From positions 25,482 through 89,481 of the forward strand of contig JASEGV010000002.1 of NCBI GenBank assembly GCA_030017895.1: a stretch of 64,000 nt of DNA, given 5' to 3'. Below the pieces are notes generated by a model. The model worked only from the letters and a program-made list of their open reading frames with translations, made no database searches and was not told the origin of the DNA. The stretch is from Bacteroidota bacterium. Lineage in GTDB: Bacteria; Bacteroidota; Ignavibacteria; UBA10030; BY39. The first letter of the stretch is position 1. The number at the start of each line of letters is the position of its first letter. The translations under genes were made by a program, and so were the position numbers. This document shows positions 4,824-64,000 of the stretch, piece by piece.

Positions 4824-5427
4824 AGCTTTTAGGTTTTATAGATTTGTTGTTGTCGATTACAAAAGCTTTCCAGTCTTTATATCTTCGAGAGTTCTGTTGA
4901 AATTGTTTTTTGGGAATAATGAGTGAATTGACTGAACGGAACGAGTGGCAGATAGCAACGGCCAGAGCATCTGTAATATCGTAATATTTTGTCCCGACTT
5001 TGTCGGGATGAAGTTTCAGAATCGATTTTACCATATATTGAACCTGTTCTTTTGAAGCGGCGCCGTTACCTACCACAGCTTTTTTAACTTCACGCGGCGA
5101 GTATTCTGATAAAGCAATTTTGTTGATAACTGCCGAAAGCATCGCCACACCGCGTGCTTGACCCAATTTCAAAGCCGACTGTGCATTCTTTCCATAAAAA
5201 GCCGTCTCAATTGCTATTTCGTCGGGCTTGTATTTTTTAATTACGCTATCTAATGTTTGAAATATAACTCCAAGCCGGATTGGTAAATCTGTTTTACTAT
5301 TATTTACAATGGCATCGCATTTAACCAGACTAAATTTTCCGTTGTTCAGTTCGATGATTCCAAAACCTGTAATCATCGAGCCGGGATCAATTCCTAAAAT
5401 TATCCGTTTATTTTTTACGGTTTTCAT
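4777..5427 (-). CDS. ruvC: Holliday junction resolvase RuvC. The ORF carries about 30 extra C-terminal codons that overlap ruvA.
   Basis: ILGIDPGSMITGFGII catalytic N-terminus and the ...DALAVAICH... signature are present. The ORF continues 47 nt into ruvA. Confidence 0.85.
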   Translation of the reverse strand: MKTVKNKRIILGIDPGSMITGFGIIELNNGKFSLVKCDAIVNNSKTDLPIRLGVIFQTLDSVIKKYKPDEIAIETAFYGKNAQSALKLGQARGVAMLSAVINKIALSEYSPREVKKAVVGNGAASKEQVQYMVKSILKLHPDKVGTKYYDITDALAVAICHSFRSVNSLIIPKKQFQQNSRRYKDWKAFVIDNNKSIKPKSYVIISNRKINLQNSN

Positions 5428-7944: not shown

Positions 7945-7997
7945 ATATATTATGCATTCTTTAAAAGTTAAATTGGAGAAGAAGTAGAAACGACGAC

Positions 7998-8450
7998 AAA
8001 ACGTAAATCTATAAGCCGAATTTTGTTTCCCGTTACCCCGCAAGAAGCGGAGGAACGGGGCTGCAATCATTTCTCTAATGCGACTTACCCATCCTGCTTT
8101 CCCCTCCAAAGAGAGGAAGTTGAACGGACAACTCTTCATTCCGCCAAAACGGAAAAGCGGGACTTACATGGTCTTGCTCCGGATAGGGTTTGCCGTGTGG
8201 CGCCAGAAGCGCCATCCCTTTCGGGACCTCCGCCATTACTGACGAAGCGGTGAGCTCTTAACTCGCCTTTTCACCCTTACTCCATTCGGTCAATAAATTG
8301 ACGGAACGGAGCGGTATTTTTTCTGTGGCACTTTCCGTTGCAGTAACCTTTCGGCTACAGCACCCTCGTTTTCACAAGGTGTCCTGTCCTGCGGAGTTCG
8401 GACTTTCCTCTCCGCAACAAGTTGCGGAGCGATTGCACGATTTACGTTCG
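7998..8450 (-). ncRNA. rnpB: RNase P RNA (bacterial type A)
   Basis: The reverse complement contains P4 5' strand AGGAAAGTCCGAACTCCG and conserved region II AAGGGTGAAAAGG...TTAAGAGCTCACC. It also has GGCAAACCCTATCCGGAGCAAG (compare E. coli GGUAAACUCCACCCGGAGCAAG) and the P4 3' strand ACAAAATTCGGCTTA. P1 is formed by 5' CGTAAATC pairing with 3' GATTTACG. The region has elevated GC and no credible ORF. End coordinates are good to about +/-10 nt. Confidence 0.85.
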
Positions 8451-59634: not shown

Positions 59635-60024
59635 TTAATTAATAATTCTTTCAGGATCTTTATTAAGTTCACGTAAACGCAACGCATAACTATGACTTTT
59701 ATCCCATTCTTTGAATTTGCGAACTCTCAGAAAGTCTCTGTAATCAGTTATCAGCTCTTCCAAACTTGCGCGGGCAACATTTGTGAGTTTGATTTCTGTT
59801 TCTTTGGATGTCCCGGAAGCCATGCTGGCTTCCACAATGTTTTGTTTTCCAGAGCGGGCAGCTTGTATCATTTGGTCGATTGTGCGATCTCCTCTAGAAA
59901 AAAATCTCTTACAAAAATAAACCGTACCATCATAAACAATTTCAGATTTTTTGTATGAAAGCAATTTTTTGTAGCCGCCGTGTACCGGTATAAAACCATT
60001 CGGAGAAGAGTGATTACCTAGCAT
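59635..60024 (-). CDS. Four-helix-bundle protein (23S rRNA intervening-sequence protein / Avd family, TIGR02436)
   Basis: 129 aa. TIDQMIQAARSGKQNIVEASMASGTSKETEIKLTNVARASLEELITDYRDFL matches the family consensus. Confidence 0.75.
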   Translation of the reverse strand: MLGNHSSPNGFIPVHGGYKKLLSYKKSEIVYDGTVYFCKRFFSRGDRTIDQMIQAARSGKQNIVEASMASGTSKETEIKLTNVARASLEELITDYRDFLRVRKFKEWDKSHSYALRLRELNKDPERIIN

Positions 60025-60206
60025 TGTTTATATTTTCTGCTTGTTTCTTTAAAGGACAATAAGGACAGCAACGACATTGAATTACTCAATTGAAAACTTA
60101 TGTTATTCAGATCTGCTACAATATATAATTTTTGTGGGAAATATGAAAGACGGTAAAAAAACTCGCTGATTGTTTTTCTAATTAATATCCCGATAAATTA
60201 AGTGGC

Positions 60207-60351
60207 ATAACGGCATTGCGCCTAACCCACCGCCTATAACAAGAACGACAAACTAAAACACAACTGCCGATGATTAAGCCGAAGGTGCGTAACTTGTTTT
60301 CGTCCACACCGAAGGCAAGTTAATTAGTTAGTCCGTCAGCTGACGAAGAAC
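60207..60351. repeat. Copy A of a repeated GC-rich non-coding element (motif 1 TAACGGCATTGCGCCTAACCCACCGCCTATAAC; motif 2 CGTCAGCTGACGAAGAAC)
   Basis: Motif 1 at 60208-60240 and motif 2 at 60334-60351. The surrounding 420-nt spacer has no ORF and elevated GC. Confidence 0.5.
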
Positions 60352-60446
60352 ACTTAGAACAAGCACACCGAACGAAAACTGAAACCCCGAAATCCCACAT
60401 TAGCCAAACTGTATAAGCAGTCGGGTTGAGTTGCTTCTTTAGTGTT

Positions 60447-61136
60447 TTACAATATTTTATAATAGATATTAACCAAAGCATTAACTGAATTCAACATTTC
60501 TTCAGCTTCTCTTCTGTGAAATACATTCCAAGAATTATAATTAGTTGAGAATTCTAATTCAATATTTGAAAATATATTGTAAGAAATTCCCATTCCCAAA
60601 CTATAACCATACCGCATTCCGTTTTTATAACTTCGAAATTCAGAAGTGTAGTCAGTTTCAGCAAGCTCAATAAACACATCATCAAAATAATTAATGGAGA
60701 CTGAAGCAGCAACAAAAGGCTTTAAGAAATAAAAACTGAAAAAGTAATTTGTTCCCATTTGAAATGACCATATATCCATTTTTGTAGTAACATCTTTAAG
60801 GAATTCTCTTTGCATAAAAACATCATAGATATACATGGATTCGTTTCCTCTAAGATGCAGGTAATTAAGACCGGCAGTTAAACTAAGTGGTAAATTTTCA
60901 AATGAATATTTAGCTCCAAATTTAAATTGAAGTTCACGACTTAATCCCAATCCGGTCAAGTTAGTAGTAGTCCCGTTAATATTTTCATATATTCCCAGCC
61001 GACCAAAATTATCAGTATAGTAATTGTTCCCATTGATAAAATTTAAACCGCTTCCTAAACCAATAGATAATGATTGAGAAAAAATATGCGCTGAGAAGAA
61101 CAGGATCAAAACGAATGTTATTTTTAATATTTTCAT
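60447..61136 (-). CDS. Outer membrane beta-barrel protein (OmpA/OmpW-like small porin)
   Basis: Signal peptide MKILKITFVLILFFSAHIFSQ followed by alternating amphipathic beta-strands with aromatic girdles. I moved the start to the ATG at 61136; the ORF track's GTG at 61166 is less likely. Confidence 0.6.
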   Translation of the reverse strand: MKILKITFVLILFFSAHIFSQSLSIGLGSGLNFINGNNYYTDNFGRLGIYENINGTTTNLTGLGLSRELQFKFGAKYSFENLPLSLTAGLNYLHLRGNESMYIYDVFMQREFLKDVTTKMDIWSFQMGTNYFFSFYFLKPFVAASVSINYFDDVFIELAETDYTSEFRSYKNGMRYGYSLGMGISYNIFSNIELEFSTNYNSWNVFHRREAEEMLNSVNALVNIYYKIL

Positions 61137-61167
61137 TTTAAATGTCCCCTTGATTGTTTGAAACACC

Positions 61168-61270
61168 TAACGGATGGCGGCTAAGTTGCCGCACTGATAA
61201 CTTTCAAATTACATCCAGACCGTTACGCGCTAAGAAGTTTGCAGTACGCTAATTGCGTCAGGTTGATGTG
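61168..61270. repeat. Copy B of the repeated non-coding element (TAACGGATGGCGGCTAAGTTGCCGCACTGATAAC ... GCGTCAGGTTGATGTG)
   Basis: Motif 1 at 61168-61201 and motif 2 at 61255-61270. Lies between the outer-membrane-protein start and the methyltransferase stop. Confidence 0.5.
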
Positions 61271-61294
61271 CTGGTTAGCCGGCAACAAAAAATA

Positions 61295-62239
61295 TTAATG
61301 ACTACCGTTTAGAACAGTAACTTTTGCTGATTTAATTTCGAAAGGATCGAAAGCCATCTTCTCTTGATTTTTGAATGCGTTGATTCGATTGTTGCAAAGT
61401 TTGATATATTCTTCGCTGATTTCGTAGCCCACGAATTTTCGATTACATTTAAGCGCCACCAAGCCAACTGTTCCACTGCCCATAAACGGATCGAGAACAA
61501 TATCATCTTCGAAAGAGTAGAGTTGGATTAAACGATAAGGAAGTTCTTCCGGAAATGGAGCTGGATGACCAATTCTTCTAGCAGATTCGGCATTCATTGA
61601 CCAAATTGATTTTGTCCATTCCAAAAATTGTTCTTTTGTAATCGTGTTTTGCTTTCCCTTTGCAACCCTTGAATAACTACCCTTTGAAAAAACTAAAATA
61701 TATTCATGAATATCTCGAAGAATCGGATTGGCAGCAGAGAGCCAACTTCCCCAAGCCGTAGAGGGACTAGCACTTGCAGCTTTATTCCAAATGATTTCGC
61801 CACGCATATTAAAACCGATTTCGAGCATGATGCGGGAGATATAATCGGATAATGGGATATAAGGCTTCCTACCTAGATTAGCAACATTGATACAAACACG
61901 ACCACCATTGATAAGAACACGATAGGTCTCTGAAAAGACATTTTTTAATAAAGAAAGATATTCATCAAGAGAGAGATCGTTATCATATTCCTTTGAGACA
62001 TTGTACGGAGGAGAAGTAATCATCAGATGAACACAATTATCAGGTAGTTCTTTCATCTTCTCTGAATTTCCAAGAATAATTGTGTTTTCTAAATTTGGAG
62101 GAAAAACATTCTCTTCAGACGATACAGGTTCGTTCGGCGTCATTGTTCCATAAAGACGGGAATTATAGAACTTGGACGAATCATGATTGATACGACCACT
62201 TGTGCCAAAAGAGCTTGTCTCGGTACCTTTGTGTTTCAT
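61295..62239 (-). CDS. DNA methyltransferase, beta-class (N4-cytosine or N6-adenine; PF01555 N-4/N-6 methylase family)
   Basis: 314 aa. Motif IV SPPY (MITSPPYNV) precedes motif I DPFMGSGTVG, which is the beta-class permutation. Confidence 0.85.
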   Translation of the reverse strand: MKHKGTETSSFGTSGRINHDSSKFYNSRLYGTMTPNEPVSSEENVFPPNLENTIILGNSEKMKELPDNCVHLMITSPPYNVSKEYDNDLSLDEYLSLLKNVFSETYRVLINGGRVCINVANLGRKPYIPLSDYISRIMLEIGFNMRGEIIWNKAASASPSTAWGSWLSAANPILRDIHEYILVFSKGSYSRVAKGKQNTITKEQFLEWTKSIWSMNAESARRIGHPAPFPEELPYRLIQLYSFEDDIVLDPFMGSGTVGLVALKCNRKFVGYEISEEYIKLCNNRINAFKNQEKMAFDPFEIKSAKVTVLNGSH

Positions 62240-62240
62240 A

Positions 62241-63098
62241 TTAACTTCTAATAAGTGATAAAAACTTTTCTGCTTTCTGAATATCCGTCTTTTCTTTTGC
62301 CGCTATGGAGATAATCTCGCCCAAATTGACTTTTGTGATCATTGAGGAAAAGAAATTTAACTCTTCTTTGATGAAAGCACTGAGTATGTTTTGGAGTTGT
62401 CTAGAATCAGAGACGGTTTGAAACCCTAACTTTGGACTGGATTTGATAAAATCAGCTTTGGTCGGTGAAGGATTCAGAGATATAAATCCTTGGATAACAC
62501 CAGATGTTTTTAGAAAGTCAACCTTGCCAACATAAGAATCGGTAATGGGACTATTACCTAGAACAACGATGGGAATTTTTGTTGCTGAAATACCAGAGAC
62601 ACGGATATTGATAGACTTGCCAATGGCCTTTAGCATAGAATCGGAACGAAGCAGCGAAGGGTTGCCTTTGTGAGTCTTATAATCGCCAAGAAGTGAGATG
62701 GTATTTGTTTTCTTTTCATATCGGTAATTTGAGACAACACTCATCTTGACTTCAAAGAGTAACTTGATATCATTGGCGTTTTGATTTACGCCATCCTTCG
62801 TACAAAAAGCTACATCGGCGCTTGATTGCCGTGTTAATCCTAATTCTTCACATACAACTCCATTAACTGCATATAGTTTGAACGCTTTGGCAATTGGAGA
62901 AAGAAGATTCTTTGCCCAGTTTTCTGTGAATTGACCAATAAGAGAATTCCTACTTTGGAGAGTTTGGCCTTCAGCATTGCTTCCTTTGGGAATATAGGCA
63001 AAATAGCCACCAGTGAGCTTATAAAAAAGTTGCTCTGGAGGAGCGAAACTTTTCAAAGATTCTTTGAGGAATTGTATTTCAGTCTCAGTATTCCACAT
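62241..63098 (-). CDS. Putative Type II restriction endonuclease, partner of the adjacent methyltransferase
   Basis: 285 aa. Its stop is 1 nt from the methyltransferase start. Candidate PD-(D/E)xK motif is ADVAF...LLFEVKM. Otherwise no family-level similarity, as is typical of REases. Confidence 0.55.
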   Translation of the reverse strand: MWNTETEIQFLKESLKSFAPPEQLFYKLTGGYFAYIPKGSNAEGQTLQSRNSLIGQFTENWAKNLLSPIAKAFKLYAVNGVVCEELGLTRQSSADVAFCTKDGVNQNANDIKLLFEVKMSVVSNYRYEKKTNTISLLGDYKTHKGNPSLLRSDSMLKAIGKSINIRVSGISATKIPIVVLGNSPITDSYVGKVDFLKTSGVIQGFISLNPSPTKADFIKSSPKLGFQTVSDSRQLQNILSAFIKEELNFFSSMITKVNLGEIISIAAKEKTDIQKAEKFLSLIRS

Positions 63099-63190
63099 AA
63101 TATTATATGATAATATAGTGATTTGCCCATTTAGAAACTAATCTTGCAAAAAGCAAAAGTTACTGATTGTTTTTTAAGCGCGTTGTCGGC

Positions 63191-63368
63191 TAACGGCGTT
63201 GCGGTTAATCTGCTGCCAAGAACAAGAATGCAGCATTGAAAAACCCAAGCCGATAATTATTAAAAAATTTTTTTTGTGCGACTACTTTGAACAAGACTGC
63301 CGACACGGAACAACTACTTTTACAATTACACAAATGCCGAGTGCGAACTCGCAGTCAGCTTGAACCGC
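63191..63368. repeat. Copy C of the repeated non-coding element (TAACGGCGTTGCGGTTAATCTGCTGCCAAGAAC ... GCAGTCAGCTTGAACCGC)
   Basis: Motif 1 at 63191-63223 matches copy A at 24 of 33 positions. Motif 2 is at 63351-63368. Lies between the REase start and the next gene. Confidence 0.5.
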
Positions 63369-63389
63369 TTGTTATATTGCGTTTTATAT

Positions 63390-64000
63390 TTATTCTCCAT
63401 TAATCCAATTTGCCCAATTTCTAAAAGTTCCGTTATCAGGTAAAGACCACTTCTGAGTAATTGTCATCCAGAAATATTCATCAATTAATTTTGGAACGCT
63501 TGAGTTTGGTCTTTGAAATTTTTCAGGTAAATCAGCTAAAGTAAAACCATTTTCTATACAGCTTGCTTGTAAAGAAATTAATTCATTTTTTATATGACGA
63601 ATATATTTAACATACGAATCAGATGATTTACGATAACCTAATTTTTTAATGATTGGATTGTCCCAAGGTGCAAAGCATTTTGGTCTGATGGCAAATAAAA
63701 TTTTAGCAGCTCCAATAGCACCAAATCTTTTTGTTATTTCATTATTCCCGCGGTGCTGAATTGAAGCAAGGCGATTCATTAAAGATTCAAATAATTCGTG
63801 AATTATCGGATAATCATCTTCCGTTAGTTCCCAAATGTTTTTATCATATGGGAAAAGTTGATTTGAAATCTGGTTATACCATTCTAAAAGTTCATTTTGT
63901 GCAGTATTATGATAAACAATTGCAAATTGACGGCATCCCCACTTATTAAGCCATTTTAACAGTGTTAAACGATGTTCTTGATTATTGAGGATATCAATCA
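63390..64000 (-). CDS. Hypothetical protein, 5' partial. The ORF continues past the window end.
   Basis: The ORF track shows 129 aa from the Met at 63779. The same frame stays open with no stop through 64000 (..IDILNNQEHRLTLLKWLNKWGCRQFAIVYHNTAQNELLEWYNQ..), so the gene is longer than 203 aa. No recognisable motif. Confidence 0.4.
   Translation of the reverse strand, partial: IDILNNQEHRLTLLKWLNKWGCRQFAIVYHNTAQNELLEWYNQISNQLFPYDKNIWELTEDDYPIIHELFESLMNRLASIQHRGNNEITKRFGAIGAAKILFAIRPKCFAPWDNPIIKKLGYRKSSDSYVKYIRHIKNELISLQASCIENGFTLADLPEKFQRPNSSVPKLIDEYFWMTITQKWSLPDNGTFRNWANWINGE

What the first reader, a model, noticed from the sequence alone, without database searches (positions are those of the whole stretch)
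60025..63389. Three related GC-rich non-coding elements bracket the outer-membrane-protein, methyltransferase and REase genes
Three ORF-free spacers lie upstream, in the minus sense, of the four-helix-bundle gene, the outer-membrane-protein gene and the REase-methyltransferase operon. Each contains a conserved motif of about 33 nt, TAACGG..TTGCG..TAA....C.GC.....AAC, at 60208-60240, 61168-61201 and 63191-63223. Copies A and C match at 24 of 33 positions. A second shared motif, GTCAGCTTGAAC-like, follows 85-160 nt later at about 60334, 61255 and 63351. The spacers are clearly GC-richer than the surrounding AT-rich DNA. This pattern fits a repeated regulatory or leader element such as a shared operator or promoter, or a small structured RNA family. 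It could also be the scar of a repeated element that mobilised these cassettes.
Basis: seen in the sequence. Interest (0 to 1): 0.55.

Follow-up and report, generated by a model that had tools for sequence, protein, structure and literature searches.

The report
Integron attC sites between gene cassettes
The three repeated GC-rich spacers are attC recombination sites of an integron gene-cassette array, a well-known gene-capture system already reported in this bacterial group, so the finding is real but ordinary.

Summary
The repeats are real. Motif 1 sits at all three stated positions, and A and C match at 24 of 33 positions. Motif 2 is right for B and C but misplaced in A: the true copy is at 60417-60434, not 60334.

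Together the two motifs are the ends of integron attC sites, with the + strand as the recombinogenic bottom strand. Motif 1 is R' (RYYTAAC) plus L'. Motif 2 is L'', carrying the two canonical extrahelical bases (T and G, 6 bp apart), followed by R'' (GTTRRRY).

A pattern scan found over 120 metagenomic loci with the same element. In 127 unique copies the R/L stems covary strongly. Copies form arrays with one ORF per unit. One array (L171) lies next to an integron integrase (TIGR02249, 418 bits) whose nearest named relatives are from Melioribacter and Ignavibacteriales. Two Melioribacter roseus strains differ by a 1,015-bp cassette inserted exactly at G|TT and carrying an attC of this family.

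The window therefore holds the end of a cassette array: partial ORF, attC_C, putative REase plus MTase, attC_B, OMP, attC_A, four-helix gene. No intI is in view.

The window copies are decayed: C slightly, B and A clearly. Integrons in Ignavibacteriae are already published, so this is a new member of a known kind. One unexplained feature remains: an AAACAATCA box after each R'.

The parts
63188..63377 (+). attC_C (190 nt), with the + strand as bottom strand. R' GGCTAAC 63188-63194. UCS 63195-63200. L' GCGGTTAATCTGCTGC 63201-63216. L'' GCAG-T-CAGCTT-G-AACCGC 63351-63368, with extrahelical T at 63355 and G at 63362. R'' GTTATAT 63371-63377. Best preserved copy.
   Evidence: 15 of 16 L-box pairs are Watson-Crick and 4+1 of 7 R-box pairs form. 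nhmmer with HMMs built without the window copies gives E = 8e-9 (5' module) and 2e-9 (3' module). It aligns end to end with 192-nt metagenomic copies.
61165..61280 (+). attC_B (116 nt). R' ACCTAAC 61165-61171. L' GCGGCTAAGTTGCCGC 61177-61192. L'' TGCG-T-CAGGTT-G-ATGTGC 61254-61271, with T at 61258 and G at 61265. R'' GTTAGCC 61274-61280. It has a 42-nt internal deletion relative to the 160-nt subtype and a weakened L box.
   Evidence: 8 Watson-Crick plus 2 G-T of 16 L-box pairs, and 5 of 7 R-box pairs. The 5' module scores E = 1e-10 and the 3' module is below threshold.
60205..60444 (+). attC_A (240 nt), the last attC of the array. R' GCATAAC 60205-60211. L' GCGCCTAACCCACCGC 60218-60233. L'' GCAG-T-CGGGTT-G-AGTTGC 60417-60434, with T at 60421 and G at 60428. 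3-nt spacer. R'' degenerate, TTTAGTG 60438-60444 (the GTT is lost).
   Evidence: 12+1 of 16 L-box pairs and 3 of 7 R-box pairs. The 5' module scores E = 9.5e-5. It is the same subtype as the attC at L171:9427-9652, which lies in an array next to an integron integrase.
63194..64000 (-). Cassette 1 (partial). The ORF is open from the window end (63998) to its stop at 63390, has no known family, and is followed by attC_C.
61171..63193 (-). Cassette 2 (2,023 bp, two genes). Putative restriction enzyme 62241-63098 (no family match) and N6/N4 DNA methyltransferase 61295-62239, followed by attC_B.
   Evidence: PF01555 at E = 1.4e-48. The upstream ORF has no Pfam, NCBIfam or PDB match, so 'REase' is inferred from adjacency only. 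A 38%-identical MTase sits in another array of this attC family (L193).
60211..61170 (-). Cassette 3 (960 bp). Beta-barrel outer-membrane-like protein 60447-61136 (likely ATG start at 61136), followed by attC_A.
   Evidence: Weak Opacity and DUF3575 hits; ORF map.
59635..60210 (-). Segment after the last attC. It holds the four-helix-bundle gene (59635-60024, TIGR02436). No attC follows it, and only 36 nt separate it from the housekeeping carboxyltransferase gene. It is either an orphan last cassette or junction DNA.
   Evidence: The gene has no homologue at the syntenic position in Ignavibacteria relatives, whereas the downstream neighbours (242-aa protein, NtrC-like) are conserved there.
60167..60175 (-). 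AAACAATCA box, 29 nt past R' of attC_A. Function unexplained.
61151..61159 (-). AAACAATCA box, 5 nt past R' of attC_B and 14 nt before the OMP ATG. Function unexplained.
63164..63172 (-). AAACAATCA box, 15 nt past R' of attC_C. Function unexplained.

Best explanation
The three elements are attC sites, the cassette-associated recombination sites of an integron. The region from 59.6 kb to beyond 64 kb is the distal end of a chromosomal integron cassette array, or a CALIN (an attC cluster lacking an integrase), in an Ignavibacteria-like genome.

How it works. When the + strand (the bottom strand) is single-stranded, it folds into a hairpin. R' (RYYTAAC) pairs with R'' (GTTRRRY). L' pairs with L'' through two 6-bp stems and one 3-4-bp stem. 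These stems are interrupted by an extrahelical G and an extrahelical T on the 3' arm, which mark the strand for the integron integrase. IntI cleaves within R' (top strand G|TT), so whole cassettes are excised by attC x attC exchange or inserted at attI.

Shown here: the site architecture, covariation of the stems across 127 copies, array organisation, linkage of the family to an integron integrase, and a natural cassette insertion at G|TT in Melioribacter roseus.

Inferred: that the window copies were made and moved this way. Copy C may still be usable. B (internal deletion, weak L box) and A (R'' GTT lost) are probably decaying, leaving the OMP and R-M cassettes fixed.
For: (1) Architecture. 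The modal ends of the family are GCCTAAC...GTTAGGC, and the AAC/GTT triplets are present in at least 121 of 127 copies. The extrahelical G is present in 117 of 127 and the T in 115 of 127, separated by a 6-bp stem. These match the published attC definition (PMC5027507; PMC8352920).

(2) Covariation. The 23 canonical pairs are 89.5% paired, against 80.2 +/- 0.5% (maximum 81.4%) in 500 partner shuffles. There are 260 double-change cells against a mean of 82 (maximum 104). The correct register gives 91.6% paired and 220 compensatory cells; slid registers give at most 44% and at most 42. RNAalifold predicts the same R/L stems with the two bulges de novo, and 7 of 20 pairs show compensatory changes.

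(3) Folding. A consensus-like member folds into the canonical hairpin as its ssDNA minimum-energy structure. So do 81 of 124 family members.

(4) Organisation. There are arrays of 5-7 copies on one strand (L094, L098, L179, L194). In 80 of 98 copies a top-strand ORF ends within 90 nt before R'', against 35 of 98 in the control orientation.

(5) Integrase linkage. L171 carries an integron integrase (TIGR02249, 417.7 bits, cut-off 265) followed by cassettes with attCs of the same subtype as window copy A. Its closest named relatives are Melioribacter roseus (71%), Stygiobacter and Ignavibacteriales.

(6) Natural experiment. Two M. roseus strains differ by a 1,015-bp cassette inserted 130 nt downstream of intI at ...TAAATAATAG|TTATACC. 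The cassette ends ...GGGTTAAGCACAACG|TTATACC and carries an attC of this family.

(7) In the window. There are exactly three 5'/3' module pairs, all on one strand, each after a minus-strand ORF or ORF pair.
Against: No integrase or attI lies in the window, because the array runs off the end at 64000. The window's own system is therefore unverified. The source genome could not be retrieved.

The window copies are among the weakest of the family in stem stability (bottom 1%, 7% and 13%). Their ssDNA minimum-energy folds do not contain the canonical hairpin.

Lengths of 190 and 240 nt exceed the classical 57-141 bp range.

The unpaired spacer is asymmetric (5-6 nt on one arm, 2-3 nt on the other) rather than 5-6 nt on each arm.

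The conserved AAACAATCA box to the right of each R' is not predicted by the standard model.

IntegronFinder's own attC covariance model could not be run here.
Confidence: 0.93

Rival explanations
1. The elements are a family of structured non-coding RNAs or cis-regulatory leaders transcribed with the flanking genes. The covarying stem would be an RNA hairpin acting as an attenuator, a stabiliser or a protein-binding site.
For: The sequence is conserved and the stem covaries. The elements lie in intergenic positions between co-directional genes. Covariation alone cannot distinguish a DNA hairpin from an RNA hairpin.
Against: No Rfam family matches even at E up to 10. The stem carries the specific attC signatures: RYYYAAC/GTTRRRY ends and G and T bulges 6 bp apart on one arm. 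The family is linked to an integron integrase, and a cassette insertion breakpoint falls exactly at G|TT. The interior shows no conserved structure.
Confidence: 0.03
2. The elements are MITE- or REP-like selfish repeats with terminal inverted repeats, scattered by a transposase and unrelated to the neighbouring genes.
For: They have inverted-repeat ends and many copies in metagenomes. The window copies are decayed.
Against: The copies are strictly orientation-locked to the ORFs (80 of 98 against 35 of 98). They are spaced one per gene or gene pair in tandem arrays. They occur nowhere else in the 60 kb of housekeeping DNA in the window. They sit next to an integron integrase rather than a transposase. 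The M. roseus insertion is a gene plus one element bounded by G|TT, with no target-site duplication.
Confidence: 0.02
3. The similarity is chance or low-complexity resemblance between GC-richer spacers.
For: B taken alone is not significantly similar to A or C in pairwise alignment. A short motif search with 3 mismatches is near chance level.
Against: A-C alignment gives z about 7-9. HMMs built from independent sequences hit all three copies and nothing else.
Confidence: 0.005

Closest known systems
attC sites of sedentary chromosomal integrons (for example the Vibrio cholerae repeats; taxon-specific attC families as in Ghaly et al. 2021, PMC8352920)
   Same: R'/R'' core sites and L'/L'' inverted repeats. 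Extrahelical G and T separated by 6 bp on the bottom strand. One site after each promoterless cassette. Sequence is conserved within a host lineage, including the long variable terminal region. Arrays sit beside an IntI gene.
   Different: The host group is Ignavibacteria rather than Proteobacteria. The sites are longer (typically 158-200 nt, window copies 116-240 nt) than the classical 57-141 bp. The unpaired central spacer is asymmetric (5-6 nt against 2 nt) because the L box has three extra base pairs. At least three sequence subfamilies co-occur in one array here.
The Melioribacter roseus P3M-2 integron, and integrons in Ignavibacteriae as reported by IntegronFinder (PMC9024848)
   Same: The attC family is the same. 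The integrase clade is the same as that of the metagenomic array L171, which carries window-type attCs (71% identity). The integrase is co-directional with the cassettes that follow it.
   Different: The window shows only the far end of an array with no intI or attI in view. Its attCs are more degenerate. The cassettes differ (R-M pair, OMP). The AAACAATCA box is not seen in other arrays.
CALIN (cluster of attC sites lacking an integron integrase)
   Same: At least two attC sites on one strand with no integrase nearby within the sequence available. The attCs are partly degraded, as expected of decaying arrays.
   Different: It cannot be told whether an integrase lies beyond position 64000, so the CALIN label is provisional.
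attC of the aadA7 cassette of class 1 mobile integrons (sequence recalled from memory, not checked here)
   Same: The bottom-strand L''-R'' segment GTCGGCTTGAAC-GAATT-GTTAGAC closely resembles window 63354-63377, GTCAGCTTGAAC-CGCTT-GTTATAT. The same bases are bulged.
   Different: aadA7 attC is about 60 nt with a tiny terminal loop. The window sites carry 60-180 nt of interior sequence.

Membership tests
integron attC site | The bottom strand starts with R' 5'-RYYYAAC-3' and ends with the complementary R'' 5'-GTTRRRY-3' (PMC5027507) | tested here: met
   Family: GCCTAAC (54 of 127) and GTTAGGC (46 of 127) are the modal ends, and AAC/GTT are nearly invariant. Window: B has ACCTAAC/GTTAGCC and C has GGCTAAC/GTTATAT, each with one off-consensus base. 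A has R' GCATAAC, but its R'' is degenerate (TTTAGTG).
integron attC site | L'/L'' inverted repeat forming a stem, shown by covariation | tested here: met
   Pairing is 91.6% with 220 compensatory cells in register, against at most 44% and at most 42 when slid. Shuffle control. De novo RNAalifold. Window copies have 15 of 16 (C), 13 of 16 (A) and 10 of 16 (B) pairs, counting G-T.
integron attC site | Extrahelical bases on the L'' arm, usually a G and a conserved T, separated by a 6-bp stem | tested here: met
   G is present in 117 of 127 copies and T in 115 of 127, with 6 bp between them. All three window copies have both, at 63362/63355, 61265/61258 and 60428/60421.
integron attC site | Unpaired central spacer of about 5-6 nt on each arm | tested here: inconclusive
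   The 5' arm has 5-6 nt (84 and 43 copies). The 3' arm has only 2 nt (TG or TT), or 3 nt in window A. The distance from the extrahelical G to R'' is 8 nt; that this equals the aadA7 spacing is recalled from memory.
integron attC site | Length 57-141 bp (the classical range; chromosomal integrons often have longer terminal structures) | tested here: not met
   The family is mostly 158-200 nt and reaches about 250 nt. Window copies are 116 (B), 190 (C) and 240 (A) nt. This range describes the sites known at the time and is not a functional requirement (PMC5027507).
integron attC site | Located 3' of a co-oriented ORF, one per cassette, in tandem arrays | tested here: met
   Window ORF map. Family test: 80 of 98 against 35 of 98 in the control. 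Arrays in L094, L098, L179, L194 and L171.
integron attC site | Recombined by an integron integrase, with crossover at G|TT of R' | tested here: met
   Met for the family only. An IntI (TIGR02249, 417.7 bits) adjoins an array with these attCs. A 1,015-bp cassette insertion polymorphism is bounded by G|TT next to intI in M. roseus. Activity of the window copies themselves is not testable with these tools.
complete integron (intI + attI + cassette array) | An integron integrase gene and attI adjacent to the array | not testable with these tools
   A motif scan for the conserved H-x-L-R-H box of tyrosine recombinases found no candidate in the window. The array runs off the window end, and the source contig could not be retrieved.
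Rfam RNA families / cis-regulatory RNA | Match to a curated covariance model | tested here: not met
   No hit in the spacers at gathering threshold or at E up to 10.

The most novel reading that the evidence does not exclude
The window's array has something extra that the standard integron model does not predict. An AAACAATCA box lies 5-29 nt to the right of every R' core, which puts it inside the start of the next cassette. The 9-mer occurs only at these three places in 64 kb and is absent from 123 of 124 other family members. This box, together with the long interiors that are conserved within each attC subfamily, might be a host-specific accessory site. It could be a binding site for IntI or a host factor, or a cassette-borne expression signal. 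That would define an Ignavibacteria-specific variant of cassette recombination or expression.
Probability: 0.1. Interest if true: 0.45.

Novelty: new member of a known kind. Interest (0 to 1): 0.2.

Why it matters
The main value is annotation. These spacers should be labelled as attC sites, and the OMP gene and the methyltransferase/putative-nuclease pair as integron gene cassettes, meaning horizontally acquired accessory genes.

The result also documents an abundant attC family with unusually long sites. The family is tied to Ignavibacteria-type integrases, has recognisable subfamilies, and includes a natural cassette-insertion polymorphism. This could help assign metagenomic cassettes to hosts.

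It shows a restriction-modification pair carried as a two-gene cassette. It also shows attC decay at the distal end of an array, which is how cassettes become fixed chromosomal genes.

None of this changes current understanding of integrons.

Tried and rejected
Rfam at gathering threshold and at E up to 10 found nothing in the spacers.

Exact-sequence look-ups of three window proteins to recover the source contig all failed. One query was, in hindsight, a truncated ORF.

The best relatives were only 73% identical, none carried the motif, and their syntenic loci have no array.

Plain ssDNA folding of the window copies does not give the attC hairpin. This first argued against the attC idea. It was resolved by showing that consensus family members do fold that way and that the window copies are decayed.

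A first attempt at constrained folding used wrong hand-read coordinates and was redone. The coordinates for copy A were then fixed by hand and verified.

The sigma-70 promoter and intrinsic terminator scan was at chance level.

The AAACAATCA box was considered as an IHF-like site or a Bacteroidetes-type promoter by eye. Neither fits, and the box remains unexplained.

The putative REase has no Pfam, NCBIfam or PDB relative. I ran no further search on it.
Full report
WHAT IS IN THE SEQUENCE

From 59.6 kb to the window end there are five minus-strand ORFs:
- a four-helix-bundle protein (59635-60024, TIGR02436);
- a beta-barrel outer-membrane-like protein (60447-61136);
- an N6/N4 DNA methyltransferase (61295-62239, PF01555, E = 1.4e-48);
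- an ORF that ends at 63390 and is still open at the window end.

The ORFs are separated by spacers A (60025-60446), B (61137/61167-61294) and C (63099-63389). The other 59 kb of the window is housekeeping DNA, including RNase P RNA at 7996-8448.

CHECKING THE OBSERVATION

A and C align over almost the whole of spacer C, far better than shuffled sequence: local z about 7.4 and global 45.5 against 13.6 +/- 3.5. B alone is not significant in pairwise alignment.

The real homologue is at 60417-60434. The elements are GC-richer (0.42-0.48) than their surroundings (0.36).

WHAT THE ELEMENTS ARE

Read on the + strand, each element has this order:
- it begins with NNNTAAC;
- after 5-6 nt comes GCGsyT-AAnyyr-CyGC;
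- near its other end comes GCrG-T-CrGsTT-G-Arynrc;
- after 2-3 nt it ends with GTTAnnn.

This is the layout of the bottom strand of an integron attC site: R' (RYYYAAC), spacer, L', a variable interior, L'' with extrahelical bases, spacer, R'' (GTTRRRY). The definition is in PMC5027507 and PMC8352920.

THE WIDER FAMILY

To test this reading beyond three copies I scanned public metagenome contigs with a degenerate pattern from motif 1. Almost every hit carries the complete element, including the second motif at a fixed distance.

Pairing 5' and 3' module hits from nhmmer gave 127 unique elements. Most are 158-200 nt long. They fall into subfamilies that correspond to window copies A, B and C.

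STRUCTURE

Across the 127 copies:
- the modal ends are GCCTAAC and GTTAGGC;
- the bulged G is present in 117 and the bulged T in 115, always 6 bp apart;
- the 23 canonical pairs are 89.5% paired, against 80.2 +/- 0.5% in partner shuffles;
- there are 260 double-change cells, against a shuffle maximum of 104.

Sliding the partner arm by 1-3 nt collapses pairing from 91.6% to at most 44%, and compensatory cells from 220 to at most 42.

RNAalifold, run on an independent MAFFT alignment of 32 copies of the 160-nt subtype, predicts the same R and L stems with the same two single-base bulges. It predicts no conserved structure in the interior, and 7 of 20 pairs show compensatory changes.

A consensus-like copy folds into exactly this hairpin as single-stranded DNA, as do 81 of 124 family members.

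CONTEXT OF THE FAMILY

Copies form same-strand arrays of 5-7 units on longer contigs (L094, L098, L179, L194). In 80 of 98 cases a top-strand ORF ends within 90 nt before R'', against 35 of 98 in the control orientation.

Contig L171 encodes an integron integrase (TIGR02249, 417.7 bits, cut-off 265). It is followed, on the same strand, by cassettes whose attCs belong to the subtype of window copy A. The closest named relatives of that integrase are from Melioribacter roseus (71%), Stygiobacter electus, and Ignavibacteriales and Melioribacteraceae MAGs. This is the same group as the closest relatives of the window's housekeeping genes.

Two M. roseus assemblies differ by a 1,015-bp insertion 130 nt downstream of intI. 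The empty site reads ...TAAATAATAG|TTATACC. The filled site reads ...TAAATAATAG|TTAGGC...[ORF]...GCCTAAC-CAGTG-CTTCAACCCGAC...GGGTTAAGCACAACG|TTATACC. That is one gene plus one attC of this family, bounded by G|TT. It is a natural record of attI x attC insertion for this attC family.

INTERPRETATION OF THE WINDOW

The region is the far end of an integron cassette array, in this order:
1. cassette 1, partial, 63194 to beyond 64000;
2. attC_C, 63188-63377;
3. cassette 2, 61171-63193, with the putative REase and the MTase;
4. attC_B, 61165-61280;
5. cassette 3, 60211-61170, with the OMP;
6. attC_A, 60205-60444;
7. the four-helix-bundle gene, with no attC after it;
8. the conserved chromosomal genes.

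The four-helix gene is absent from the syntenic position in relatives, whereas the next two genes are conserved there.

If the arrangement follows L171 and M. roseus, any integrase would lie beyond 64000 on the minus strand. It is not in view, so the choice between a complete integron and a CALIN stays open.

STATE OF THE WINDOW COPIES

The window copies are weaker than most of the family.
- C has 15 of 16 L-box pairs and intact AAC/GTT.
- B has a 42-nt interior deletion and only 10 of 16 L-box pairs.
- A has lost the GTT of R'' and has a 3-nt spacer.

Their stem stabilities fall in the lowest 13%, 7% and 1% of the family. Their minimum-energy ssDNA folds prefer local hairpins. With HMMs trained without them, all three 5' modules are found, but only the 3' module of C.

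I infer that the distal cassettes are becoming fixed. This is an inference and was not tested.

COMPARISON WITH WHAT IS KNOWN

Complete integrons in Ignavibacteriae have already been reported by the IntegronFinder authors (PMC9024848). attC families conserved within a taxon are also known (PMC8352920). The present case is therefore a new member of a known kind.

It differs from the textbook attC in three ways:
- length, with 116-240 nt here and typically 158-200 nt in the family, against 57-141 bp;
- an asymmetric central spacer;
- three subfamilies present in one array, whereas the peat-metagenome arrays of the B subtype look homogeneous.

WHAT REMAINS UNEXPLAINED

The 9-mer AAACAATCA (minus sense) occurs exactly three times in the 64-kb window, always 5-29 nt beyond an R' core. 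That places it in the first bases of the next cassette. The shuffle expectation for the whole window is 1.2.

The 8-mer AACAATCA, which the box contains, appears at the equivalent position in only 1 of 124 other family members. Exchange at G|TT does not predict conservation there. I could not assign the box a function.

VERDICT

The regulatory-RNA or operator reading is not supported, and the 'element that mobilised these cassettes' reading is right. The elements are integron attC sites. Interest is low (0.2).

Noticed in passing
window 60167-60175, 61151-61159, 63164-63172: An AAACAATCA box (minus sense) follows every attC R' core by 5-29 nt. These are the only three occurrences of the 9-mer in the window. 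The box is absent from the same position in 123 of 124 related attCs elsewhere. Function unknown.
   Followed up: partly
L207 11111-12125 against L208 (Melioribacter roseus, GCA_049325435.1 against CP003557.1): A 1,015-bp gene cassette (a Ni_hydr_CYTB-family ORF plus an attC of about 183 nt) is present in one strain and absent in the other. It is inserted 130 nt downstream of intI, exactly at G|TT. This locates attI downstream of a co-directional intI in this clade and shows that the integron has been active.
   Followed up: yes
L208 2973-9807 (M. roseus P3M-2): Small unknown ORFs (one PIN-like) lie upstream of intI on the same strand. At least one attC 5' module is at 5104-5140. This suggests a second cassette cluster on the other side of the integrase, which is an unusual layout.
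   Followed up: no
L081-L086 (IMG/VR viral contigs); L082 is the same contig as L087: Contigs classified as viral carry complete attC elements of this family (93-196 nt). L082/L087 also has a 52-aa stretch similar to the N-terminus of the integron integrase, about 1.2 kb from the attC. These could be misclassified contigs, prophage neighbourhoods or phage-borne cassettes.
   Followed up: no
window 60331-60343: A 13-nt insertion specific to attC_A contains the palindrome GTCAGCTGAC.
   Followed up: yes
window 61165-61280 against 60205-60444 and 63188-63377: The R-M cassette ends in a 'B-type' attC. That subtype otherwise forms homogeneous arrays in peat and wetland metagenomes (Ga0182021, Ga0187886). 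Its neighbours here are A- and C-type, which co-occur with each other elsewhere. This hints that the R-M cassette came from a different integron pool.
   Followed up: partly
window 62241-63098 (-): The 285-aa ORF directly upstream of the methyltransferase has no Pfam, NCBIfam or PDB sequence relative. If it is the restriction enzyme, it belongs to an undescribed family.
   Followed up: partly
window 7996-8448 (-): Bacterial RNase P RNA, class A (187.5 bits), with several large insertions relative to the Rfam consensus.
   Followed up: no
L129 3-107: A contig edge encodes the last 35 residues of an integron integrase, 74% identical to the L171 enzyme. The same short contig carries a window-type attC. 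This is a second integrase-attC linkage.
   Followed up: partly
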